Part shown: positions 806 to 64,000 of the stretch, in pieces
Position numbering within the stretch: position 1 is the stretch's first letter
Layout: each line of letters opens with the position of its first letter
DNA from: a virus
Reading direction: 5' to 3' (one strand)
Length of the DNA stretch: 64,000 nt
Virus record (IMG/VR): IMGVR_UViG_3300046519_000190
Coordinates: 46,852-110,851 of that record
Made by a program: the position numbers and the translations under genes
Notes under the pieces: generated by a model
Told to the model about the DNA's origin: nothing
Seen by the model: only the letters and a program-made list of their open reading frames with translations
Database searches by the model: none

Positions 806-3800
806 TTACAAGTCGAAGATGTCAGCTACCTGCTGGAACACCTGGTCGAGTAAGGCTTGTTTGCTGGCGTCGAAACAGATCATCGCCGGGTTGAATCCGC
901 TGACCACAGTACAGTCGGTCTTTGGATCGAAGAAAGACTTGCCGCAGTTGTCTTCCCAGCCACCCTTGATATCCGCAACAAGCTGTCGAACCGCTTTGCT
1001 GCCGAGTGCGACGATCACCGGAGGCTTCAAGAGGGCGATTTCTCGATCCAGGAAGCGGGCACATCCGTTTGCGGTCGTGTTCTCAATCTCCTCTTCCTTG
1101 AGCTTGCGAGCCTTGATGAAGCTGGTGACGTACACATCGGACATCTTCAAGCCGGCTTTCGTCATCGCCGCTTTGATGAATGCTCCAGTATCACCCACCA
1201 TCATCTGACCCTTCTCTTCCTCTTTGTACGATGGGCCGTCCAGAACGATCATGACCTTCGGCTTCTTGCCCAGGACAGGTTGAGGGTGTCTGCGCCCAAT
1301 AAAGGGACAGCCGTCACAACCTTTGTTCGTTTGGAAGTCGTCGACAATCTGGATCAGTTCAGCGCTGACGTCGCCAGTGATTTCGATCACGCGCTCTGCC
1401 TTGACGTTGCTAACCACGATCCCAGGGAGAAGCTCCTTCTGGTCACGCAGACGATCCGGGTGTCGGCTGTCCAGTTGACCTGGCTCGATCTTCGCGAACG
1501 CACCGATCTTATCCAGAACCTCCTGGTGACGCTTGTTGCATGCGCGCCGGTCAACTTCGAGGATCAACTCCGCTTTGTTCTTGAACCCGCGACCCAGCTT
1601 CTTACGAGCTTCCACGATTGCGTTGGCAGACTTGTCGCTCATGCCCTTGATCGATTGGAACGGTGCATACAGGATCTTCTGCCCTCTCGCTGCGTCAAAG
1701 CCGACCTCGTAGCGGTTCGAGCTGTGGTTGATGTCAGGGGGTACGATGTAGATATCGTTCGCCTGAGCATCTTTGGCGAGCCCTGAGAGCTTCTGTTCAT
1801 CCAGAATCGACAGACAGGCTGCATAGAACGCTTCGGGGTAGTAGACCTTCACCCACATGGTCATGTAGGAAATGAGGGTGTACGCAACTGAGTGGGATTT
1901 GTTGAAGCCATAGCCAGCGAACTTCTCGATCTGCTCGAAGATGAAGGTCGCGGTTGCGTGATCCAGGCCCGACGTTGCAATACAGCCGTCTACGAACTTG
2001 TCGCGCTGTTCGGCCATCTTCACCGGGTCTTTCTTACCCATGATCTTCCGGAGTCCGTCAGCCTCTGGGAACGTGTAGCCCGCGAGGTCTCGGGAAATCT
2101 GCATAACCTGCTCCTGGTACACCATCACAGACATCGTGGGTTCCAGTGCCGCTTTCATGTTCGGGTGAAGGTACTCAGGCTCGGTGAATTCCTTCTTGAT
2201 GGACACATACATATCCATCAGACCTGCTTTGATAGGGCCTGGTCGGAACAGAGCTGTTGCGGCAACACAGTCGTCGAAGGTCAGATTGCCCCCGCTACCG
2301 AGTTCCTTGAGCAGCTTGCGCATACCCCCAGACTCAAACTGGAACACCCCGTAGGTCTTGCCCTCTGCGAACGACTGGAGAACTTTCGGATCGTCGAGTG
2401 GAAGGGTGGTGAAGTCCACATCGATGCCGGCGCTCTCACGAATGTAATCCCGTGCGAGTCGAAGGATGTCCAAGTTGGACAGACCCAGCACGTCGAGCTT
2501 GATCAAGCCGAAGTCTTCGACGACCCGCTTGTCCCAGTTCACGATGCCCACGCCCTGGCGAGTGTTGACTACGCCACGTTCAACGATGTCTGTTCCTGCT
2601 ACAACCACACCCGCTGCGTGCTTGGCGAAGTTCTTGAACGTGCCCTGCAAACCTACAGATGCCGCCCAAACTTCCGGGTGGTTCAGTGCGAGCTTCTCCA
2701 ACTCGGGTACGAACGCAACCGCTTTCTCAAGTGGGATTGGTACGCCCGACTCTTTCGGCACCAGCTTCGAGCAGTCGTACTGGTTCTCATGCAGACCATG
2801 AGCCTTGCCCACCGCTTGAATAGCGCCAGCACCCGCGATGGTGTTGTAGTTCGCGATCTGGACGACACGATTGCTGCCGAACTTGCCCACCAGATGATCA
2901 ACGATGTCCTGACGGCGACTGGACATGAAGTCGAGGTCGATGTCGGGCAAGTCGATACGTTCCGGGTTGATGAATCGCTCGAAAATCAGGTTGAAACGGA
3001 TTGGGTCCACGTCAGTGATGCCCATCAGATATGCAACCAGGCTACCACCTACCGAACCCCGACCCGGGCCTACCATGATGTCGTCGTTCTTCGACCAATT
3101 GACGATGTAGTGAACCAACTGGAAGTAGGGCTCGAACTCCATCTTCTGGAGAATGCTCAGCTCGTACTTCAACCGCTCCTGATACTTGGGCAGCAGACTT
3201 GCGTCGGGCTTGTAGCCGAACACTTCTTTACCCAGACGCTCTTTCCAACCCTGCTTGCAGATGGCCACGATGTCAGCCATTGGACTCGACGACATGACGG
3301 GCAGACTTGGGGTCATCTTCGACCACTTGTAAGGGTGGTCTTTGAAGTAGGCTTGAGTTTTGCACCAGGCTTGGTTGAAAAGATCGGTCGCTGCATCGTC
3401 GTCGAAACCCATAGCCACTACACGATCGATCGCCAACCCCATGTGTGTGACAACCTCAGTTGCCTCGATCACATGAAGGTCTTCGGGCGGCTCACGGCGA
3501 AACATCCCATCAACTTTGTCATGCGACAAGATGGAGTTCATCGTGTTGCGGAACTTCGCCTCGTCTTTCTGATTGAGCGTGGGCCGGGTCATGATCCCTT
3601 CAATGCCCCGTTCCTGCATGAGTTTCAGCGTGTTGAAGTTGTGCGCGTTGTAGTACGCACTATCAACTGGGATCAGCTCGCACAGTAGCTGTGAGACGTC
3701 GAGCGCATAGCAGAGTGAATCTAGTACGCTCTCACGATGTTTGTGCTGTAGCACGCTATAAGCGCTGCCCAGGGTCATCGTTAGGTTGCCCCGAGTCATG

Positions 3801-47201: not shown

Positions 47202-47540
47202 TCAAGTCAGTTCCAACAAGACCACATCATCTTCCTCAGACTCTACATACACCGGAACATGAGCAGGTTTTGGAGGTGTAACAACCCGGATTGCTACCGC
47301 TGTTGGTGCCAACGTCTGCTTCATCCTCCCATCTCTCATCTCTTTACCACCCGGAATGATCCAGCCCTGCTTTTTCAGGATAGCAAGGCTACACATCATG
47401 GACTCACGGGTGGATTCGTAGGGAACCCGGCTCATGATTTGGTAGACGTCAACGTCTGAAACCCGGGTGCCTGATGCGTCCAAGTTTCCACGTACCACCA
47501 CTTTCATGATTTCGCGTTGTTTCGTGGTCATCGCTTTCAT
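47202..47540 (-). CDS. Winged-helix-like hypothetical protein
   Basis: MTTKQREIM...SMMCSLAILKKQGWI; coupled to the GNAT gene. Confidence 0.6.
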   Translation of the reverse strand: MKAMTTKQREIMKVVVRGNLDASGTRVSDVDVYQIMSRVPYESTRESMMCSLAILKKQGWIIPGGKEMRDGRMKQTLAPTAVAIRVVTPPKPAHVPVYVESEEDDVVLLELT

Positions 47541-48418
47541 AGCAGGTCCAACCTCAATGGCTCTGACGGACCTTGCAAGTCGAAAGCCCGGAGCGGTAAC
47601 GATTGTGGAATCTCCCTACCCAAGTCCGGGTTGGTCCAGATTCCGTAAACTGGGCTCGCGAACACAAGCTGCTGTAGCTCACGCAGGAGGTGCTCCGGCT
47701 TCATCCCTTGCACTTTCCCTGTACCCGCATTCAGATTGCTCCCTGTCTTCTCCCTCGCGCTGTGACGGTAGTAGAACTCTTGCATCGCGGTCATCACACG
47801 CGCTCGGTGAGCTGGAGTGAAGCTGTTGAGCTCCTCCATGATCGCCTGGTGGTCAGCAGGGTGGCCTGCAAACTGGCTCCGCATGAACTTCAAGCCCTGC
47901 ACGTAGGCAGCAGCAGGCTTCAAATGAGCATGTTGGAACCCGGCTTTCACATCAAACGGATTGAATTTGGACATCGAGGACTGAATCTCGATGAACCTCA
48001 TCCCATCCATTCGCATGGCCAGGTTCACCATTCGATACGAAACCCCAACACCGCGGTACATGGTGTCCGTCACGATCCGTGCAGCCCGGCGAAAGTTCGC
48101 ATTCAGGAACGTTGCCCGGTGTACGTTGGTGAAATGGCTGTCATTGCCCGGTTTCAGCTTGGGGAATACCTGGTGACGAGGCGCCAGAAGCAGGCTTACC
48201 GTGCTGAGTACCACAATACCAACGAGACAACCATCATCAGTAACACAACGCCAGTACCTGGGTCCGGCGGGTAGATTCTCAGCCTTGTAGTGAAGGTCGT
48301 GAAGTTCATCCCAGTCTTCCTTGGTGCCCCGTTCGACACGCATGGTATCCAGCAGAGAGAACCGCGGCTTGGCGGCCGGGTTCCGTTCGACAACGATTTC
48401 CCATTCAGGCTGGCTCAT
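47537..48418 (-). CDS. GNAT-fold acyltransferase-like protein
   Basis: LHDLHY; RIVTDTMYRGVGVSYRMV (acyl-CoA motif A); MSKFNPF..KAGF. Confidence 0.75.
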   Translation of the reverse strand: MSQPEWEIVVERNPAAKPRFSLLDTMRVERGTKEDWDELHDLHYKAENLPAGPRYWRCVTDDGCLVGIVVLSTVSLLLAPRHQVFPKLKPGNDSHFTNVHRATFLNANFRRAARIVTDTMYRGVGVSYRMVNLAMRMDGMRFIEIQSSMSKFNPFDVKAGFQHAHLKPAAAYVQGLKFMRSQFAGHPADHQAIMEELNSFTPAHRARVMTAMQEFYYRHSAREKTGSNLNAGTGKVQGMKPEHLLRELQQLVFASPVYGIWTNPDLGREIPQSLPLRAFDLQGPSEPLRLDLL

Positions 48419-48740
48419 CTTCACCACCGCTATCAACATCGACCTTGCTGCATGCCAGCATCAGCGCGTCCGACACCTCTTGGTTGGTCTGGATGTTCGA
48501 GTCCCAGATCGTGAAGCACGCACCGTTGGGGCCAGCAGCCTGGTCACACATGACGATGATGGCTTTGCTCCAGTCACCGCCCATTGCGTGAAAAGCTTCC
48601 GCGGCGAGAGCCAGGCCGGCGACGTAATCCTTGAAGATCGGGTCTTTCGCAGCTTTCCATTCGGTCGCTGGAACCACATCAAGGTCTTGTCGACCGACAA
48701 CCTGACGGCTCTTGAAGTTTACTTTGATCAGCTCAGACAT
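48405..48740 (-). CDS. Hypothetical protein
   Basis: Overlapping-operon ORF with RBS GGAGG. Confidence 0.6.
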   Translation of the reverse strand: MSELIKVNFKSRQVVGRQDLDVVPATEWKAAKDPIFKDYVAGLALAAEAFHAMGGDWSKAIIVMCDQAAGPNGACFTIWDSNIQTNQEVSDALMLACSKVDVDSGGEDEPA

Positions 48741-49113
48741 TTTTCGCGCCTCCAATAGCAGTAGTGGCTTCGTTTCTGATCAGAGTGTTGATTCTGGTGG
48801 CGAGAGCTGCATCGCCAGCATTGGCAACGGCACTGATGTTGATGCTCGGGTTCATTTCCGCGCGGAGCTCCATCGATCGCAGGCCAGTGTTGTTCTTCAT
48901 GAAACCTGGAGCGACGGCAACACCGCCACCCCACATTCCCATGTCAGCGGTCTTTTCTTCGTCGCGCTTGGTGCTCAGCACCTCACCGGCCCGGGCTTCG
49001 CAGACTTCAGCCAGACGATCACGGATCTTATTCCACTGATCCTCAGTTGGAGCTGTGTCGCCGTTGATGTCTACGAAGCCTTTCAGCCAGATTGCGAAGT
49101 CGTTGGAGTTCAT
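48733..49113 (-). CDS. Hypothetical protein
   Basis: F..WLKGFV.I....PT.DQW..I...L N-terminal motif; coupled ORF. Confidence 0.65.
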   Translation of the reverse strand: MNSNDFAIWLKGFVDINGDTAPTEDQWNKIRDRLAEVCEARAGEVLSTKRDEEKTADMGMWGGGVAVAPGFMKNNTGLRSMELRAEMNPSINISAVANAGDAALATRINTLIRNEATTAIGGAKNV

Positions 49114-49745
49114 GCTGCCACCTCTACTTTGATTTTGTCCTTGAAGCGCTTGTCCACGTAGATGGTGGGAGCCAGCTCTTCGCGAAGGTCTTTGTGTGTG
49201 GTGGCAACGATCACAGTTGCACCAACTCTTGCTGCCTGCTTGCGCAGGTTGAAGGCGACAACTTTCGCAGTCACCCGGTCCAGTACAGCGCCGAACTCGT
49301 CAGCTACCCAGACGTTCGCACCAGAGGTCATCAGGAGCGCGATCTTGAAGCGGTAGCGCTGCCCGTCAGACAGCTCGCTTGGCTTGCGGATCATCAGGTA
49401 GGCGTCGTTCAGACCGGCCAGGGACAGAATCTTGATAGCTTCGTCGGTGCTACCCCCGATCTGATCAACGAGAGGCTTCTCTTGGAGAGAAACCTCGTCG
49501 ATATCAGTGACCATTTCGGTCGAGCGCATCTGTTTTGCCAGCTCTTTGAGCAGCAGAGACTTGCCCGACCCGGATTGGCCAGTGATGTACAGCACGTCGC
49601 CCTGATTGACCTCGATTTCAAAGTCTTTGTAGACGGTGAATTCCTTGTCTTCCAGCCCCAGCCCGAAGCCTTCTGCGACTTCGATCACCCGACGGCTACG
49701 AATCACCGAGCTGGGGAACGTCTTGTTGACGACATACTTGGTCAT
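49110..49745 (-). CDS. Stand-alone ABC-type ATPase
   Basis: Walker A GQSGSGKS, signature LSDGQ, Walker B VWVADE, H-loop TTH; no permease nearby. Confidence 0.9.
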   Translation of the reverse strand: MTKYVVNKTFPSSVIRSRRVIEVAEGFGLGLEDKEFTVYKDFEIEVNQGDVLYITGQSGSGKSLLLKELAKQMRSTEMVTDIDEVSLQEKPLVDQIGGSTDEAIKILSLAGLNDAYLMIRKPSELSDGQRYRFKIALLMTSGANVWVADEFGAVLDRVTAKVVAFNLRKQAARVGATVIVATTHKDLREELAPTIYVDKRFKDKIKVEVAA

Positions 49746-53507: not shown

Positions 53508-54110
53508 TCAAGATGCCTGGAGCAACCCCATGAGTGCGGTGAGCTTGTTGTCTGCTCGCGCTGTCTGCTGACGTAGTTCGTGTCGCTGCTGTTCGCTCAT
53601 GTCGCTTAGTATCTGCTCATACAGAGCGTCTGCCGCTTGAATCTGCGCACTGATCAGCGTTTTCTGTTTGCGTTGCTTAGAATCGCTCTCAGAAGCTTGA
53701 CCGCTTTCGCTGATCAGGTTCTGGATGCTCTCGAAGTCACTCAGCGCCCGCGTTCCCAGGTCTGCACGGCCGATTTCAGACATTGCAGCCGGCAAGAACT
53801 CGATGTAGGTCTTGAACGCTGCTCCCTTTGTCAGTCGAGTCATGCCGGACCCGCCTGTATACGCGCTCACGGTGATCTTGCCGATGTGAGCAAGGTTCGA
53901 CTTGTTCTGGCAGAGACTGTGAGCGGTTGACACGATCTTCATATGGTTCTGCGAGTACCAGCTACTGAGCCGGCCCTTGAAGAGATAGTTGACCGTCTGT
54001 GGCTCCATTCCCTGTTCGAGCTGATCGATGACGGTCGATCTGAGAGCGGACATGAAGGTTATTAAATCGTGGGCTATCGACAGAAATACATGACTGGCCG
54101 ATGACTGCAT
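53508..54110 (-). CDS. Hypothetical protein
   Basis: 200-aa ORF upstream of the tRNAs; GAGAG before the ATG. Confidence 0.55.
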   Translation of the reverse strand: MQSSASHVFLSIAHDLITFMSALRSTVIDQLEQGMEPQTVNYLFKGRLSSWYSQNHMKIVSTAHSLCQNKSNLAHIGKITVSAYTGGSGMTRLTKGAAFKTYIEFLPAAMSEIGRADLGTRALSDFESIQNLISESGQASESDSKQRKQKTLISAQIQAADALYEQILSDMSEQQRHELRQQTARADNKLTALMGLLQAS

Positions 54111-54242
54111 TTTCGCACTCTCTATGCGTGTTTAAGTTCGCGCAGTATCGAGCTGTTTCTGAGGCACTGCTATATGCGAAACACGGCGATATCTCAATGC
54201 CGTTACAGTGTCGGGGATCACAAATCCCACGCAGGCAGTTGT

Positions 54243-54282
54243 AAAAAATTCGCTTGCAATACTTACACAGCATCTATAGAGT
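54243..54282 (+). promoter_or_regulatory. Sigma70-like promoter
   Basis: A-tract, then TTGCAA-N17-TAGAGT. Confidence 0.5.
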
Positions 54283-54320
54283 TCGTCACATCAGCAGCGA
54301 GCACAGCGAGCAAACACAGA

Positions 54321-54854
54321 ATGAAAGCATATGTAGGAGCGGGAGCAAGCGATACGCCCACCGAAGTGCTGGAAATGATGGGTCAAATCGCTGGAGTGAT
54401 GTCCGCTAAGGGTTTCACATTGCGGTGTGCAGAACACAGCGAGGCTGATAGAGCGTTCATCAAAGGTTCAAAAGGTCGATTCCACTCGTTCGTCCCGTTC
54501 AACGTGATTGACGAGAGCCTGGATAACCCCGACGGACCCGAGTATGTGAACAGCGTCTGGGCAATCCCATCAGATATTGATCCGGGATCATCGGATGCCA
54601 CATTCGCTCGAAGCCTCGATCCCAAGTTTCTGATGCTTCCGAAGGTTGAGAAACAGTGGGATGTGGTAGCAAATTCGCTGATCTACGGTCTTGATCGTGT
54701 CAGCGTGGCAAAGATGTTGATCGTGTGGTCTACACCTCATGATCACGTCTACAGGTACATCACAAAGGCTGTTGCAGCCGGCGTGAAGGTGTATAACCTG
54801 GCTCTGACAAAAGATCGAGCCGTAATGCAGTCGTTGATCGACAGAGGTGCTTGA
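54321..54854 (+). CDS. SLOG/DprA-like Rossmannoid protein, degenerate motifs
   Basis: YVGAGASDTP..VL..M..IA......GFTLR......ADRAF..G, and GVKVYNL, resemble phage YAGIGSR.TP / SGGA.GAD proteins. Confidence 0.6.
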   Translation: MKAYVGAGASDTPTEVLEMMGQIAGVMSAKGFTLRCAEHSEADRAFIKGSKGRFHSFVPFNVIDESLDNPDGPEYVNSVWAIPSDIDPGSSDATFARSLDPKFLMLPKVEKQWDVVANSLIYGLDRVSVAKMLIVWSTPHDHVYRYITKAVAAGVKVYNLALTKDRAVMQSLIDRGA

Positions 54855-56187: not shown

Positions 56188-56408
56188 CCGAATTCGTCAG
56201 GCGTGGCGATGTTGTGCTGGTAAGTTTGTTGTGGCTCGAACAGGTGTAATGAAGTAGCGGTGACAATCTCCGAGGATCGTGGGAGTCACTACGAAAAGTC
56301 ACAGAGCCTGTCGAGGTGCCTGGAGGTTTCCTCCTTTACTCCGGGTGCGCAAATCTGTGACCTCCTAAACCCCGCTGTCTGAGGGGAACGATTCCATGCA
56401 GACGACCT

Positions 56409-56444
56409 AGCCCCTAGATTTGTTCAATCTAGGGGCTTTTTCTT
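56409..56444 (+). terminator. Intrinsic terminator ending the ncRNA array
   Basis: AGCCCCTAGATT-tgttc-AATCTAGGGGCT-TTTTCTT. Confidence 0.8.
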
Positions 56445-56592
56445 GTCTGCGATATTCTCGTCTGAATCACTCGACATTCTGTCTCTGGGAAGCGCTCTCT
56501 GATGCGTTTTGAGACGTTTTCTCTATGATTGTGCGTCTGTGTAGCGCTCACAAAAAAGCGCGCTATTAGCGCGCTCTAGTGAAGCTTGCCAA

Positions 56593-57135
56593 TCAGATGG
56601 CAGGATGAATCTCTCGCAGGTCCTCTGGCTCAACCCACTTCCAGGACACAGTGTCGAAACACCGGAGCTTGCCACCGCTGTTGCTGTCGAACTCGATAGC
56701 CTTGTTGACGGCCGCAACCGCATCCACGCCCATCGACATCGCGGTCATCGCGAATGGAGTACCCGAGCCTGCTGCGAGTGGCAGAGAAGCCGAGAACGGA
56801 ACCATTTCTTCTGTCACCAGCCAGAACTCACCCTCTTTGGTGACGATGACGATCCCGATGCTTGCGTTCTGTGGGTCGGGGTGAATGCCGAAGATGCTGA
56901 ACAGGTCTTCCGGGTCGCGTCTGAAAAAGTCGCCGCCACTTGAGAGCCAGTGAAGCAAGGCTGTGATGTTGATCACGTTGCCCGAGCAACCGATTACGGC
57001 TCGAGTTTTCTTGCCGTTGATAGTGATCGCCAGCTCATGGAGCTTTTTCTCAGCACGACCAACAATCATCCCGTCCCCAGTAGTGCAACGTCCATCTGAG
57101 GCCAGGTAGCGTCCATCAAAAGCAATAGTGGTCAT
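56593..57135 (-). CDS. Ntn-hydrolase, HslV/proteasome-beta-like peptidase
   Basis: M-TTIA N-terminal Thr, ASDG, KK, AGSG..FA..AM..G, D..SGG. Confidence 0.8.
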   Translation of the reverse strand: MTTIAFDGRYLASDGRCTTGDGMIVGRAEKKLHELAITINGKKTRAVIGCSGNVINITALLHWLSSGGDFFRRDPEDLFSIFGIHPDPQNASIGIVIVTKEGEFWLVTEEMVPFSASLPLAAGSGTPFAMTAMSMGVDAVAAVNKAIEFDSNSGGKLRCFDTVSWKWVEPEDLREIHPAI

Positions 57136-57225
57136 ATCTACTTCCCCGCGAATTTGGGCTGACTGCCCGTGATGTACGCATTATCATAGACTTTCAAAAC
57201 CCTTTCACACCACAGGAACTTTCCG

Positions 57226-57483
57226 ATGTTGAACCATTACACCATCTACACCATGCCCAACTGCCCGCACTGCGTTGCAGCCAAAGAACTGTTCAAGCGC
57301 GAGGGTCTGAACTTCACTGAAATCACTCAGTTCACCCCGGAAGAACTGATCGCCGCGGTTGGCCCCGTTCGCACGCTTCCACAGATCATCGTCGAAAACT
57401 CAGAGCGCTTTCACATCGGCGGCTACACCGATCTGCTGAAATACCGCGCCGGCGAGATTCCTGTCCTTCGCAAGCTGGGCTGA
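57226..57483 (+). CDS. Glutaredoxin
   Basis: CPHC, TLPQI, IGGYTDL. Confidence 0.92.
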   Translation: MLNHYTIYTMPNCPHCVAAKELFKREGLNFTEITQFTPEELIAAVGPVRTLPQIIVENSERFHIGGYTDLLKYRAGEIPVLRKLG

Positions 57484-57524
57484 TATCACGTAACATGGAT
57501 GACGCACTCATAGGAGGCGTCATC

Positions 57525-57749
57525 ATGTTCTATCTGGTCACACAATCACAAAATGGCCATCGTCTCGTTGATTTCAGCGACAAGATGGACGAGCTTCTCC
57601 CTCAGATCGACCCTCTTCTAAGCCAAAACGCCGCTGCACTGCCCGTCATCTATGATGAAAAGGCGATGCGAGCGGCGTTTTTGGTTGATGGGTTCGGAAT
57701 CATCGCTCAGGAAGGCGATGGCTACCTGGTATCACTGGACGATCTTTGA
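57525..57749 (+). CDS. Hypothetical protein
   Basis: RBS AGGAGG before MFYLVT. Confidence 0.55.
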   Translation: MFYLVTQSQNGHRLVDFSDKMDELLPQIDPLLSQNAAALPVIYDEKAMRAAFLVDGFGIIAQEGDGYLVSLDDL

Positions 57750-61665: not shown

Positions 61666-62085
61666 TCAGCGCACGCTTTTGAGAAGCGGGATCGTCTTCT
61701 GTGTGGTCAAGTCATAGATGGCAGTGGCTTTCTCAATGGCCTTTTGGACATCGGTAGGCATGTGTGTCTGGAGCTTGTTCATGGACTGTGTTTCGAGCAC
61801 CAGGATGTCACGCGCCAATCGTTTGATTTCCTGACTCCGGGTTTTGGCTTGCTCGATAGCCTTGTGACGGTGAATCTGGATCTGCATGTAGTCGTCTTCG
61901 TCGTGGGGGTCGAGTCCGCCATTCTCAGCAAGCCGGCGAAGCCGGGCTTCGTGTAACTGGGCGTCCCCGTATTGGTTCAGGGCTTTACGCTGGTGGGGCG
62001 TGTGGAACCCGAGTTTATTCCACAGGCGTTCAAGTCCGTTACGGGGTTTGGGCATTTCGAAGTGGTCGTGTAAGGGCTTAGGCAT
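61666..62085 (-). CDS. Hypothetical protein
   Basis: 139-aa ORF with AAGAGAGA before the ATG. Confidence 0.55.
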   Translation of the reverse strand: MPKPLHDHFEMPKPRNGLERLWNKLGFHTPHQRKALNQYGDAQLHEARLRRLAENGGLDPHDEDDYMQIQIHRHKAIEQAKTRSQEIKRLARDILVLETQSMNKLQTHMPTDVQKAIEKATAIYDLTTQKTIPLLKSVR

Positions 62086-62206
62086 GTTGGTCTCTCTTGT
62101 GTAAGGGGTTACGTGGTTAAGTGTTATGTGGCTACGTGGTTAAGTGTTTACGATCCGGCTGTGTAAGGGGCTATGTGGTTAATTCCTACTCCTGGTTGTG
62201 TAAGGG
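62068..62206 (+). repeat. Interspersed direct repeats GTGTAAGGG (x4) and A(C/T)GTGGTTAA (x3)
   Basis: GTGTAAGGG at 62068, 62099, 62161, 62198; ACGTGGTTAAGTGTT at 62111 and 62134; ATGTGGTTAA at 62173. Confidence 0.75.
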
Positions 62207-62319
62207 CTGTTCCTGGGAGTCCGGGACAATGGCGCCAATAGGGCCACACTTTCAAACTACCATCTAAGACTTTGACAACTTACTCCAACTAGTAAGTTGT
62301 CTTATATATTAACTAACAA

Positions 62320-62646
62320 CTAGTGTGCAAACTTAGCGCACAACTTAGCGCGTACAATAGCGCGTATATCAGAGCGCATTGTATATACACTAGTGCGAGT
62401 GCAACTAACATCTAGTGCGATGCGTACAACATGACGCTTGATAGCGTCATATACAGCGCTTGCACTAGCAGCGTCTAACATCACACTAACGTTATCAGAG
62501 CGATGCAGATAGTAACGCTTATGAGCGCGCACATAGCGCAATTGAAAAAGCGCGTTACTTGCGCACGTCACATAGTAGCGACGATCTGTTACGAGCGCGC
62601 TAGCGTGCGCTGTGAGACGTTTTGCGTGTGTCATGCTCATACTCAC
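62320..62646 (-). CDS. Possible basic protein with no Gly, Pro or Trp
   Basis: 108-codon ORF, but downstream of a terminator and with no clear RBS. Confidence 0.35.
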   Translation of the reverse strand: MSMSMTHAKRLTAHASALVTDRRYYVTCASNALFQLRYVRAHKRYYLHRSDNVSVMLDAASASAVYDAIKRHVVRIALDVSCTRTSVYTMRSDIRAIVRAKLCAKFAH

Positions 62647-62659
62647 TGCTTGAATCAGA

Positions 62660-62692
62660 GAAAAGCGCTCTCAGACGATCTGAGAGCGCTTG
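62660..62692 (-). terminator. Intrinsic terminator built without GG/CC
   Basis: AAGCGCTCTCAGA-tcg-TCTGAGAGCGCTT-TTCTCT. Confidence 0.75.
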
Positions 62693-62705
62693 TGTGTGCG
62701 CTTGA

Positions 62706-63260
62706 TTAAGCGCTGTAAATCGCAATCAACTCTTTGAGTACAACTGCATCTTTGTTCAAGTTGATAGTCTTTTCAGACTTCGAGTAAGTTGCGAAGTTGA
62801 AGAAGATCGCGCACGTTTTGAAATACTGCGCTTGCGTAGTAGTTTCGTGTTGCATTTGTGCGCGCACTTGTTCAAGCGTCATGCTCACTGCATCTTTTGC
62901 GACGATGAATTGCAGCACAGCGTCAAGCGCACGATCGTTAACTTTTTGTTTGTTTGCGATTGCTTCGAGAATCGCAATCGAACGCTTTTTCAGTTCACGC
63001 GATTGCTCAGAAAGTTGCGCAGCGTCAACTTTGTACTTGCTCAGACTTGCGAGCGCTTTTTCGCTCATGTTCGACAGCGCTTCTGTGTAGCGCTCGTGAG
63101 TCGACGCAGTTTTAGCAGTAGCGTTGAAGCTAACGCGCTCTTCATCAGACTGCGCTTGCTCAGCTTGCTGCAAAGCTTGCGTTTTAGTGTTGCTGTAGTT
63201 CACAGCAGCGTTAGCGAAAACTTCTTTAAAAGATGCAGCTTTAGCATTGATAGTAGTCAT
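62706..63260 (-). CDS. 184-aa helical protein with no Gly, Pro or Trp (possible C-terminal winged helix)
   Basis: Has its own promoter, a GAGAGAG RBS-like element, ATG at 63260 and a terminator right after the stop. Confidence 0.75.
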   Translation of the reverse strand: MTTINAKAASFKEVFANAAVNYSNTKTQALQQAEQAQSDEERVSFNATAKTASTHERYTEALSNMSEKALASLSKYKVDAAQLSEQSRELKKRSIAILEAIANKQKVNDRALDAVLQFIVAKDAVSMTLEQVRAQMQHETTTQAQYFKTCAIFFNFATYSKSEKTINLNKDAVVLKELIAIYSA

Positions 63261-63337
63261 GATAATACTCTCTCGTTGTGAGCTTCGCGATATTGCGAAG
63301 TCTCTGCAAGTCGCGTTGTGCGTCTTGCTTGAAATGA

Positions 63338-63377
63338 ATATTAGCAGACTCAAAGTCCTGTGCAAGCGATTTTTCGA
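63338..63377 (-). promoter_or_regulatory. Sigma70-like promoter for the Gly/Pro/Trp-free gene
   Basis: TCGAAAAATCGC-TTGCAC-N16-TAATAT with extended -10 TGn. Confidence 0.6.
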
Positions 63378-63577
63378 TTATTTCTCAGATCGGAAAAGCA
63401 TAAGCTTAGATCGAAAAAATGCTTGCTCTGCAAGCGTTCACTGTGATAGTCGCGCAGCGCGCACATAGATAAACGACGTTCCGGCTCAGAACTGGCTTTT
63501 CGGCATTTTGTGGCTAAAGCCCGGTTTCGGGCCACATTCCGAGGCAAGCCGCGGCTTGGGTTCCCGTGGAAAATAAA

Positions 63578-63617
63578 TCGAAAAAACGCTTGCAACCGTC
63601 CCGTGGCGTCCTAGAAT
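63578..63617 (+). promoter_or_regulatory. Sigma70-like promoter
   Basis: TCGAAAAAACGC-TTGCAA-N16-TAGAAT. Confidence 0.6.
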
Positions 63618-63643
63618 GAACACATACCAAAGGAGATACCGCA

Positions 63644-63859
63644 ATGAACTCAATCACCTCGCTCTTCCTGTCCATGATGATCGTCTGCCTCGCCATCCCA
63701 GCCGCCCTCGCCGTGACCGGCGCAACCGCCCAAGGCGCCCGGGAGCGCGCCGCGGAAATCCGCTACCAGGAAAAATCCGGGACTGCCAAGCTAAACGGGG
63801 CCATTTTCCGGGCCAACCTCAAAGCCGCGGCCAAAGCCTGCCCCAACTGCCAAATGTGA
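63644..63859 (+). CDS. Small secreted or membrane-anchored protein ending in CPNC
   Basis: RBS AAGGAG, hydrophobic N-terminus, upstream promoter. Confidence 0.6.
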   Translation: MNSITSLFLSMMIVCLAIPAALAVTGATAQGARERAAEIRYQEKSGTAKLNGAIFRANLKAAAKACPNCQM

Positions 63860-64000
63860 CCCAAACCCGCCCAAGGGCCACCAAAAGGCTGGCCCGCCCT
63901 GAATCCCTCCCAATGTGACTCCCAAGCTCCCACGGGCCATCCCACGGCCCAAGGCACCCGGCGACCCCGCAGGCAACCATAGGCGGCTCCATAGAGCCGT

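What the first reader, a model, noticed from the sequence alone, without database searches (positions are those of the whole stretch)
62287..63356. A 1.07-kb locus with no CC or GG dinucleotide, encoding Gly/Pro/Trp-free protein
Seen: no CC or GG in 1070 bp of roughly 45% GC DNA, where about 100 would be expected by chance. Only two occur in the next ~120 bp, to 63480. The ban covers the 5' UTR, the RBS (GAGAGAG rather than GGAG), all codons and codon junctions, the terminator stem and ~370 bp beyond it. It therefore acts on nucleotides, and the 184-aa protein has no Gly, Pro or Trp as a result. Established: the type I-F CRISPR-Cas PAM, common in Pseudomonas, is 5'-CC-3', and SpCas9-type PAMs are NGG. 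Inference: (a) a PAM-free island protecting an essential early or maintenance gene, possibly an anti-CRISPR or other anti-defence factor; or (b) phage DNA carries a bulky modification at GG/CC, perhaps from the ParB-ABC-GNAT cassette, and this locus must stay unmodified to be read by host RNA polymerase. I know of no description of such a locus.
Basis: partly seen in the sequence, partly recalled or inferred. Interest (0 to 1): 0.95.

Follow-up and report, generated by a model that had tools for sequence, protein, structure and literature searches.

The report
GG/CC-free early phage gene unit
One complete early transcription unit of a 111-kb Pseudomonas phage, two genes included, contains no GG or CC on either strand, and distant relatives keep the same ban, so some still-unidentified factor must read that two- to three-letter DNA word.

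Summary
Window 62286-63356 has no CC or GG. The gap is 1,072 bp, against a next-longest gap of 158 bp in the 110,851-bp genome (P about 1e-58).

The tract is one transcription unit. It holds a strong sigma70 promoter with UP element, gene A (184 aa, coiled coil plus winged helix), a terminator, fast-evolving gene B (108 aa) and a closing hairpin. CC/GG-dense flanks lie on both sides.

All five GenBank Nickieviruses (about 74% DNA identity) and most metagenomic relatives keep the ban. Of 74 gene A homologs, 63 have no Gly, Pro or Trp. Recoding the same proteins with the genome's own codon usage gives 45 and 25 CC/GG sites, so selection acts on nucleotides.

New here:
- The core ban is on trinucleotides, GGB/VCC. 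One lineage keeps GGA/TCC at expected frequency and another tolerates GGT/ACC.
- One lineage bans GGB on the sense strand only.
- Rhizobium phage RHEph10 has the same kind of tract around an unrelated protein.

The reader of the motif is unidentified. My best guess (about 0.3) is the family's predicted ParB-ABC-acyltransferase DNA modification, with this unit kept unmodified. A type I-F PAM is disfavoured. This scan had already found similar tracts in other phage genomes. I found no published description.

The parts
62286..63356 (.). CC/GG-free tract (0 CC, 0 GG on either strand); strongly depleted zone continues to about 63480 with 2 sites
63338..63377 (-). Promoter P1 of the unit: UP-like ATCGAAAAA (63377-63369), -35 TTGCAC (63365-63360), 16-nt spacer holding the boundary GG/CC (63357-8), -10 TAATAT (63343-63338)
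   Evidence: Read from sequence. The -35 block GTGCAAGCG is invariant in 6 phages. The ATCGAAAAAnGCTTGC module occurs only 3 times in the genome, all here. Consensus match only; the transcription start is not mapped.
63268..63274 (-). Ribosome-binding site GAGAGAG (no GG) 7 nt before the ATG of gene A
62706..63260 (-). Gene A: 184 aa with no Gly, Pro or Trp; N-terminal helical hairpin (residues 3-63) plus C-terminal winged helix (106-184); no Pfam or PHROG family
   Evidence: pLDDT 96; MarR/ArsR/TubR-like, Z 7-8.3, rmsd 2.2-2.5 A over about 73 aa
62657..62691 (-). Hairpin terminator T1 (AAGCGCTCTCAGA / TCTGAGAGCGCTT followed by TTTTCTCT), kept by compensatory changes in relatives
62320..62646 (-). 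Gene B: 108 aa, basic, no Gly, Pro or Trp; fast-evolving; open in all six Nickieviruses (100-128 aa); clear homologs only in L014 and L010
62274..62301 (.). Closing hairpin (11-bp stem) whose loop holds the first CC/GG after the tract; the stem sequence varies but pairing is kept in relatives
62250..62278 (-). Invariant block CTAAGACTTTGACAAC; on the minus strand it reads TTGTCA-N17-TTGAAA, a candidate promoter (P4) for the next early operon
   Evidence: invariant columns. Promoter role inferred from the sequence only.
62076..62206 (-). CC/GG-dense downstream flank: iteron-like array of CCCCTTACACA / TTAACCACRTA units, C-rich on the local sense strand
   Evidence: 4 of the genome's 5 copies lie here
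63413..63617 (+). Divergent promoters P2 (TTGCTC 63423-28 ... GATAGT 63445-50) and P3 (TTGCAA N16 TAGAAT, 63590-63617), each with the same UP-like module
63480..64000 (+). CC/GG-dense upstream flank (22-35 sites per 100 bp), including a C-rich CCCA-type stretch at 63860-64000

Best explanation
Shown: strong purifying selection keeps one complete early transcription unit (promoter core, leader, gene A, terminator, gene B, closing hairpin) free of a very short DNA word. The word is GG/CC here and GGB/VCC at its core in relatives. Something in the infected cell therefore reads that word, and this unit alone is exempt.

It would mark cytosines in (V)CC on DNA that is packaged. On the incoming, marked genome, unaided host sigma70 RNA polymerase would then read through only this unmarked unit. 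The template strand would matter most, which fits the lineage that bans only template-strand VCC. The products would be a winged-helix regulator (gene A), probably binding the flanking iteron-like arrays, and a small fast-evolving protein (gene B). They would then open the rest of the programme, whose leaders are packed with the marked word.
For: Selection on a short word:
- The ban is absolute over 1,072 bp.
- It is kept in 5 isolates at about 74% identity (65% for hairong) and in IMG/VR relatives.
- 63 of 74 homologs lack Gly, Pro and Trp.
- Codon resampling excludes a protein-level cause.

Unit-level extent:
- The ban runs from inside the P1 spacer to the loop of the closing hairpin.
- L020 has the same gene A' - terminator - gene B' layout.

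Specificity typical of an enzyme or reader:
- L018 has six trinucleotides at 0 (about 110 expected) with GGA/TCC at expectation.
- L022 tolerates GGT/ACC.

Template-strand logic:
- L020 has 3 sense-strand GGB (about 60 expected) but 42 VCC.

The ban belongs to the unit, not the protein:
- In G001 the tract sits on a gene A paralog.
- RHEph10 has a 1.2-kb tract around a non-homologous 204-aa protein.

The cassette:
- It is syntenic in all tract-bearing genomes, 6-15 kb downstream.
- It is predicted in print to acylate a DNA nucleobase (PMC7824862).
- Dinucleotide-specific phage base modification exists (iggy, GA; PMC10484667).

Flanks:
- CC/GG-dense flanks on both sides in every genome fit heavily marked leaders.
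Against: - No modification has been shown for any of these phages.
- BUCTxx99 carries the cassette in the same synteny and has no tract. JGB6 has only about 300 bp, and SSU5 shows about half depletion.
- No phage gene tracks the ban across the nine genomes compared.
- Iggy has 97% of its GA sites modified yet no GA/TC-free unit. Motif-free early units are therefore not a general result of motif-directed modification.
- Most lineages also ban the non-template strand, which the template-block idea does not need.
- Other units with sigma70-like promoters (P3, P4) are full of CC/GG.
- The ban is strong in Pseudomonas and Rhizobium members and weak in enterobacterial, Xanthomonas and Stenotrophomonas members. 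That pattern would fit a host-encoded reader equally well.
Confidence: 0.3

Rival explanations
1. A phage-encoded DNA-binding factor reads the word. Candidates are the winged-helix gene A product, a ParB-like protein that loads at the dense arrays and spreads, or the factor that reads the genome's CC-box promoters. It would bind GG/CC-rich DNA for host shut-off, promoter switching, coating or partition. Its own control unit would be cleared of sites so that it is never road-blocked or silenced.
For: - Dense CC/GG arrays sit directly on both flanks in every genome.
- A local iteron-like array lies next to a winged-helix gene.
- The ban type changes between gene A subfamilies.
- Two ParB-like genes are conserved in all relatives.
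- Earlier scan notes report CC-box promoters across this genome (I did not check them).
Against: - A duplex binder should give a symmetric ban, yet L020 is one-stranded.
- RHEph10 has the same ban around an unrelated protein.
- Avoiding a composite operator or promoter does not require removing every dinucleotide.
- BUCTxx99 has both ParB genes and no tract.
Confidence: 0.2
2. Escape from a host DNA-level defence (a restriction-like nuclease, a CRISPR PAM check or similar) during a window when only this DNA is exposed, as in T5 first-step transfer or T7 transcription-driven entry. Gene A and/or gene B would be the counter-defence made in that window.
For: - Defences act on T5-like phages only through sites in the first-injected region (PMC10644984). 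The same holds for Autographiviridae (PMC12455610).
- PhageTerm classed Nican01's ends as long DTR, as in T5 (PMC11256456).
- Gene B is fast-evolving.
- The strength of the ban varies with host group.
- One-strand avoidance is a known escape from Type III R-M.
- One relative's contig starts 250 bp upstream of its tract.
Against: - The physical ends are unknown, and the Nican01 record starts at the terminase by convention.
- The tract sits at an internal divergent promoter hub (P1/P2/P3), and the DNA just upstream of P1, which would have to enter too, is CC/GG-dense.
- No known nuclease reads only 2-3 bp.
- The TCC and ACC exemptions do not fit a CC PAM.
- CC/GG is not depleted genome-wide.
Confidence: 0.15
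3. An RNA-level reader. An endoribonuclease or RNA-binding repressor, from the host (abortive-infection toxin) or the phage (host shut-off), acts at GG(B) in RNA. This first message is written without the site, as ACA-less mRNAs escape MazF and GCU-less mRNAs escape MqsR.
For: - The ban matches a transcript from start to closing hairpin.
- L020 bans GGB on the message strand only.
- The RBS is rewritten to GAGAG in full-ban genomes, while AAGGA is kept where GGA is exempt.
Against: - In most lineages the banned set is exactly reverse-complement symmetric over the same interval. An RNA reader explains that only with a precisely co-extensive antisense transcript, for which there is no evidence.
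- All other phage messages are full of the motif.
Confidence: 0.1

Closest known systems
Site-free first-injected regions (T5/BF23 first-step-transfer region; leading region of Autographiviridae)
   Same: A short early-expressed region whose lack of target sites decides whether defences can act. It has strong host-type promoters and a repeat-rich boundary region next to it (PMC10644984, PMC12455610).
   Different: In those phages the avoided sites are ordinary 4-13-bp R-M or CRISPR targets, avoidance is partial and host-specific, and the region is the physical leading end. Here the word is 2-3 nt, the ban is absolute and reshapes two proteins, it covers exactly one transcription unit, the flanks are rich in the word, and the position relative to the genome ends is unknown.
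Genome-wide PAM or restriction-motif depletion in phages (for example CC depletion in P. aeruginosa phages)
   Same: Selection against a very short motif, with CC/GG being the type I-F PAM (PMC12174588, PMC4246573).
   Different: Those are modest statistical depletions across whole genomes. Here the genome-wide density is normal and one 1.1-kb unit is completely cleared. Relatives show trinucleotide exemptions and a one-strand form.
Toxin-resistant motif-less mRNAs (MazF ACA-less, MqsR GCU-less genes)
   Same: Whole genes written without a 3-nt word so that they escape a sequence-specific reader. (From my own knowledge, not checked here.)
   Different: Those bans are on the message strand only. 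Here both strands are cleared over the same interval in most lineages.
Motif-directed phage DNA hypermodification (DpdA dPreQ0 at GA in iggy; Mom; predicted ABC ATPase-GNAT base acylation)
   Same: Phage enzymes that mark nearly every copy of a 2-nt motif exist (PMC10484667). A predicted base-acylating ABC-GNAT module (PMC7824862) is syntenic in this phage family.
   Different: No modification has been shown here. Iggy shows no motif-free unit, so the link between modification and a motif-free early unit has no precedent.

Membership tests
T5-type first-step-transfer (pre-early) region | Lies at the leading physical end, within a long terminal repeat | not testable with these tools
   Nican01 is classed 'DTR (long)' (PMC11256456), but the repeat is not located, and the records start at the terminase or at arbitrary points.
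T5-type first-step-transfer (pre-early) region | The whole early-entering segment, including both divergent units, lacks the targeted sites | tested here: not met
   Only the leftward unit is cleared. The divergent P2/P3 side and the DNA upstream of P1 are CC/GG-dense.
CRISPR type I-F PAM (CC) avoidance | Symmetric loss of CC and GG regardless of the neighbouring base | tested here: not met
   Met in this window. In relatives, however, TCC/GGA are at expectation (L018), ACC/GGT are tolerated (L022), and L020 is cleared on one strand only.
CRISPR type I-F PAM (CC) avoidance | Hosts carry type I-F systems with spacers against these phages | not tested
   No host genome survey or spacer mapping was done.
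Restriction-site avoidance | The avoided motif is a defined 4-8-bp recognition site | tested here: not met
   All contexts of GG/CC are absent, while GCGC, CGCG and similar are abundant.
Toxin-resistant motif-less mRNA | Ban on the message strand only, confined to the transcript | tested here: not met
   The ban is confined to the transcript, but in this window and most relatives both strands are cleared. Only L020 fits.
Motif-directed phage DNA modification with an exempt unit | A DNA-base-modifying enzyme is encoded | tested here: inconclusive
   Two ParB_N proteins and an ABC ATPase were detected by Pfam. The 300-aa and 126-aa partners have no Pfam or PDB sequence match. G001's fused 359-aa form is a genuine ABC ATPase with a C-terminal extension. 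The acyltransferase role rests on PMC7824862 and on record annotations.
Motif-directed phage DNA modification with an exempt unit | Virion DNA carries a modified base in GG/CC context | not testable with these tools
   This needs LC-MS/MS or native long-read data. None was found in the papers read.
Motif-directed phage DNA modification with an exempt unit | Cassette presence predicts a tract | tested here: inconclusive
   The cassette is present in all tract-bearing genomes (G000-G005, RHEph10). BUCTxx99 has the cassette but no tract, and SSU5 and JGB6 have weak or short ones.
Winged-helix (MarR/ArsR/TubR-like) DNA-binding proteins (gene A) | Winged helix-turn-helix fold | tested here: inconclusive
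   In the AF2 model (pLDDT 96), residues 106-184 superpose on MarR, ArsR and TubR chains at Z 7-8.3, rmsd 2.2-2.5 A over about 73 aa. Foldseek E-values are no better than 0.2. There is no Pfam hit, and DNA binding is untested.

The most novel reading that the evidence does not exclude
A large family of roughly 100-115-kb phages and phage-plasmids uses a base modification at (V)CC as a genome-wide transcription lock on the packaged DNA. One unmodifiable 'key' unit, written without the target word at the cost of Gly, Pro and Trp, would be the only part that host RNA polymerase can read on arrival. Its products would unlock the rest. This would be a new principle of temporal control and self-exemption, and the first phenotype for the predicted ABC-acyltransferase DNA-acylation system.
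Probability: 0.2. Interest if true: 0.92.

Novelty: new variant of a known kind. Interest (0 to 1): 0.8.

Why it matters
Motif avoidance in phages is known only as a modest statistical bias or for ordinary restriction sites. Here a two- to three-letter word is removed completely from a whole transcription unit. The cost is three amino acids and the preferred codons, and the ban has been kept across deep divergence and across unrelated proteins.

That implies a reader of GG/CC (core GGB/VCC) strong enough that a single site is harmful, yet no such reader is known. The lineage-specific exemptions (GGA, GGT) and the one-strand form give a precise, testable fingerprint for finding it.

These phages are candidates for biocontrol of Pseudomonas syringae, so their early programme has practical interest.

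Tried and rejected
- Chance, composition or assembly artefact: rejected.
- Protein-level cause (a helical Ala/Lys-rich protein): rejected by codon resampling and by the 194 bp of cleared non-coding DNA.
- Mutational decay by a CC-directed deaminase: the expected TC/GA excess is absent (both are below expectation) and both ORFs are intact and conserved.
- Known RNA family: only one sub-threshold Rfam match (Pyrobac-1, 25.6 bits against a gathering score of 40).
- Pfam and PHROGs for genes A and B: nothing. The protein atlas returned only unnamed clusters.
- G001 as a 'no-ban, no-cassette' control: this failed on both counts. The cassette is there in a fused form, and the tract sits on a gene A paralog.
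- TmcA/NAT10 (ATPase-GNAT, ac4C at CCG) as a homolog of the cassette enzyme: not supported. The ATPase is ABC-type, so the analogy is conceptual only.
- Gene-content screen for a phage gene that tracks the ban: none found.
- Iggy as a positive precedent: negative.
- Remote homology of gene A to the RHEph10 and SSU5 unit proteins: none by hhalign.
- Rho avoidance: the message keeps UC, and in L020 it is C-rich.
- G-quadruplex or R-loop avoidance, and protection of GG from oxidation by flanking GG 'sinks': these were considered. None explains an absolute two-strand ban or the GGA/GGT exemptions.
- Secondary CC/GG-free islands of 100-158 bp: they look like Ala/Thr/Lys-rich coding segments and were not pursued.
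The first IMG/VR scan with a single protein found nothing. The metagenome scan gave only 3 loci.
Full report
**The observation.** Window 62287-63356 (1,070 bp, 46% GC) has no CC and no GG, where the window's own rates predict about 65 and 62. The window is the last 64 kb of a 110,851-bp IMG/VR phage record that assembles as a circle, with a 127-bp end overlap. In the whole genome the gap between successive CC/GG sites has a mean of 8.5 bp. The tract's gap is 1,072 bp and the next-longest is 158 bp, giving P about 1e-58. No other dinucleotide class has a comparable gap. An unbiased strand-specific scan of all 80 di- and trinucleotides ranks GG and CC at this spot first, at log10 P about -25. 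GC and CG steps are in excess inside the tract, so the tract is not simply AT-rich.

**Anatomy.** Read on the minus strand, the tract is one transcription unit.
- Promoter P1 is TTGCAC-N16-TAATAT, preceded by ATCGAAAAA. That UP-like/-35 module occurs only three times in the genome, all at this hub, where it serves P1 and the divergent P2 and P3. The last upstream GG lies in the P1 spacer.
- A leader follows, with the RBS GAGAGAG.
- Gene A runs from 63260 to 62706 (184 aa).
- A hairpin terminator follows, kept in relatives by compensatory changes.
- Gene B runs from 62646 to 62320 (108 aa). It is open in all six Nickieviruses, with excess third-position change.
- An 11-bp-stem hairpin closes the unit, and its loop holds the first GG after the tract.
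- Next comes an invariant block that reads as a candidate promoter for the following early operon.
- After that lies a C-rich leader with an iteron-like array, CCCCTTACACA/TTAACCACRTA. Four of the genome's five copies are here.

Both flanks are enriched in CC/GG, at 20-35 sites per 100 bp against a background of about 11.

**Conservation.**
- The nearest GenBank relatives are the five Nickievirus phages of Pseudomonas syringae, at about 74% DNA identity (65% for hairong). Each has a CC/GG-free gap of 1,083-1,137 bp at the syntenic place.
- Gene A has 74 homologs in the large protein collection, down to 37% identity. Of these, 63 have no Gly, Pro or Trp.
- IMG/VR loci show absolute tracts of 1,069-1,490 bp in L010, L012, L014 and L015, and near-absolute ones in L011, L013 and L017.
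- With the two protein sequences held fixed, resampling codons from the genome's own usage gives 44.7 +/- 5.5 sites in gene A (minimum 23 in 20,000 trials) and 24.8 +/- 4.3 in gene B, against 0 observed. ACC, the favourite Thr codon, and GCC are never used.

Selection therefore acts on the nucleotide word, and the loss of Gly, Pro and Trp follows from it.

**What is new: the word and its strands.** In more distant relatives the ban resolves into trinucleotides.
- L018 (the same phage as L019 and L023) has GGA 13 and TCC 15, against 15.2 expected for each. GGC, GGG, GGT, GCC, CCC and ACC are all 0, where about 110 sites are expected. The ban there is exactly GGB/VCC on both strands.
- L022 clears GGA, GGC and GGG but tolerates GGT/ACC.
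- L020 clears GGB on the sense strand only: 3 sites in 1.2 kb against about 60 expected. It keeps 42 VCC, normal C-ending codons and AAGGA ribosome-binding sites.
- G001 first looked like a no-ban control. It turned out to have a second gene A paralog sitting in a roughly 700-bp GGB/VCC-free tract with a dense upstream flank.
- Rhizobium phage RHEph10 belongs to the same broad family by its replication, structural and cassette genes. It has a 1.2-kb tract with 6 sites where 168 are expected. That tract holds a 204-aa protein with no detectable homology to gene A.
- Xanthomonas phage JGB6 has only about 300 bp, SSU5 shows about half depletion, and Stenotrophomonas phage BUCTxx99 has none.

The ban therefore belongs to a unit (its position and role), not to a protein. 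Its core is GGB/VCC, and it is graded across lineages.

**The proteins.** Gene A has no Pfam or PHROG family. It folds with high confidence (pLDDT 96, pTM 0.88) into a long helical hairpin plus a C-terminal winged helix. The winged helix superposes on MarR, ArsR and TubR domains at Z 7-8.3 and rmsd 2.2-2.5 A over about 73 residues. Scores at that level indicate the fold but say nothing about function. A DNA-binding regulator acting on the neighbouring repeat array is a reasonable inference. Gene B is small, basic and fast-evolving.

**Who reads the word?**

- The rest of the genome has normal CC/GG density.
- The flanks are dense in the word.
- The TCC and ACC exemptions are not expected of a CC PAM.
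- One lineage is cleared on one strand only.
- A Rhizobium phage shares the trait.

*A first-entry model like T5 or T7.* This is the closest documented logic (PMC10644984, PMC12455610), and Nican01 is reported to have long terminal repeats (PMC11256456). However, the ends are not located, the tract lies at an internal divergent promoter hub, and the DNA just upstream of P1 is rich in the word. Strand-biased avoidance is a known escape from Type III restriction, so the one-strand form does not strictly exclude a duplex nuclease.

*An RNA-level reader.* This fits the transcript-shaped extent and L020. It does not fit the exactly reverse-complement-symmetric ban over the same interval elsewhere.

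*A phage DNA-binding factor.* This fits the dense flanks and the local repeat array. It does not fit L020 or the unrelated protein in RHEph10.

A ParB-ParB-ABC ATPase-(acyltransferase) cassette beside the terminase is syntenic in all tract-bearing genomes. The Aravind group predicts it to acylate a DNA base (PMC7824862). A mark on C in (V)CC that hinders RNA polymerase mainly in the template strand would explain the unit-shaped extent, the enzyme-like changes of specificity and the one-strand form.

Against option b:
- No modification is known for these phages.
- BUCTxx99 has the cassette and no tract.
- No gene tracks the ban.
- Phage iggy, with a proven GA-directed dPreQ0 modification, shows no GA-free unit.

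I therefore put this model at about 0.3, a phage DNA-binding reader at 0.2, a host DNA-level defence at 0.15, an RNA-level reader at 0.1, and something not yet thought of at about 0.25.

**Earlier scan findings and the literature.** Notes from this scan report the same kind of tract in at least six other phage or phage-plasmid genomes, including a GGV-type ban and Rhizobium phages. I confirmed the Rhizobium case and the relaxed SSU5 case on sequence I fetched myself. The phenomenon is therefore recurrent within the scan. In the searchable literature I found only statistical PAM or motif depletion (PMC12174588, PMC4246573). I found no description of an absolute, unit-level GG/CC ban.

**Limits.**
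As a result, genome termini, read depth and expression could not be examined, and only homologs reachable through IMG/VR, GenBank and one metagenome scan were studied at the DNA level.
- Promoters and terminators are consensus or conservation calls, not mapped ends.

Noticed in passing
window 63369-63377, 63413-63428, 63580-63595: The module ATCGAAAAA(A)nGCTTGC (UP-like A-tract plus extended -35) occurs exactly three times in the 110.8-kb genome. All three are at this divergent hub (P1 leftward, P2 and P3 rightward), which suggests it is the strongest host-type promoter cluster of the phage.
   Followed up: partly
window 62076-62206: A local iteron-like array of CCCCTTACACA and TTAACCACRTA units lies in the C-rich leader of the next early operon, and one copy overlaps the first codons of the gene at 62085. 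It could be a regulator operator array, an origin or partition site, or a Rho-loading leader.
   Followed up: partly
window 63860-64000: A very C-rich stretch of CCCA-type repeats follows the 71-aa membrane-like ORF (63644-63859), with up to 35 CC/GG per 100 bp. It resembles a rut-like or factor-binding leader, and it mirrors the dense flank on the other side of the tract.
   Followed up: no
window 54234-54336, 56488-56589, 3670-3768, 53538-53701; genome 39513-39671, 29837-29993, 18754-18858: Secondary CC/GG-free islands of 95-158 bp. Several are not AT-rich (51-58% GC, with an excess of GC/CG) and lie inside coding regions. They look like Ala/Thr/Lys-rich helical segments written in the same 'style' as the tract.
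   Followed up: partly
G001 (IMG/VR 3300028388_003330) 74008-74783 and 76801-77352: This relative has two gene A paralogs. The copy nearer the family consensus (P0074) has normal CC/GG and 7 Gly, 3 Pro and 1 Trp. The divergent copy sits in the GGB/VCC-free tract. This natural pair could be compared experimentally.
   Followed up: partly
L031:4201-5280 (G001) compared with window 47540-49745: The cassette's ATPase-acyltransferase is one 359-aa protein in G001. In this window and most relatives it is split into a 211-aa ABC ATPase, a 126-aa ORF and a 300-aa protein.
   Followed up: partly
RHEph10 (JX483881.1) 98923-99809: The GenBank record annotates plus-strand ORFs (gp147, gp148) across its GG/CC-free tract. 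The minus-strand 204-aa ORF (99195-99809; 1 Gly, 0 Pro, 0 Trp) looks more like a real protein, so the annotation may be on the wrong strand.
   Followed up: no
BUCTxx99 (OR529408.1) 56349-57566: AAG is absent from the plus strand for 1,217 nt (log10 P about -10). This is the strongest motif-gap anomaly in that genome. It is unrelated to GG/CC and unexplained.
   Followed up: no
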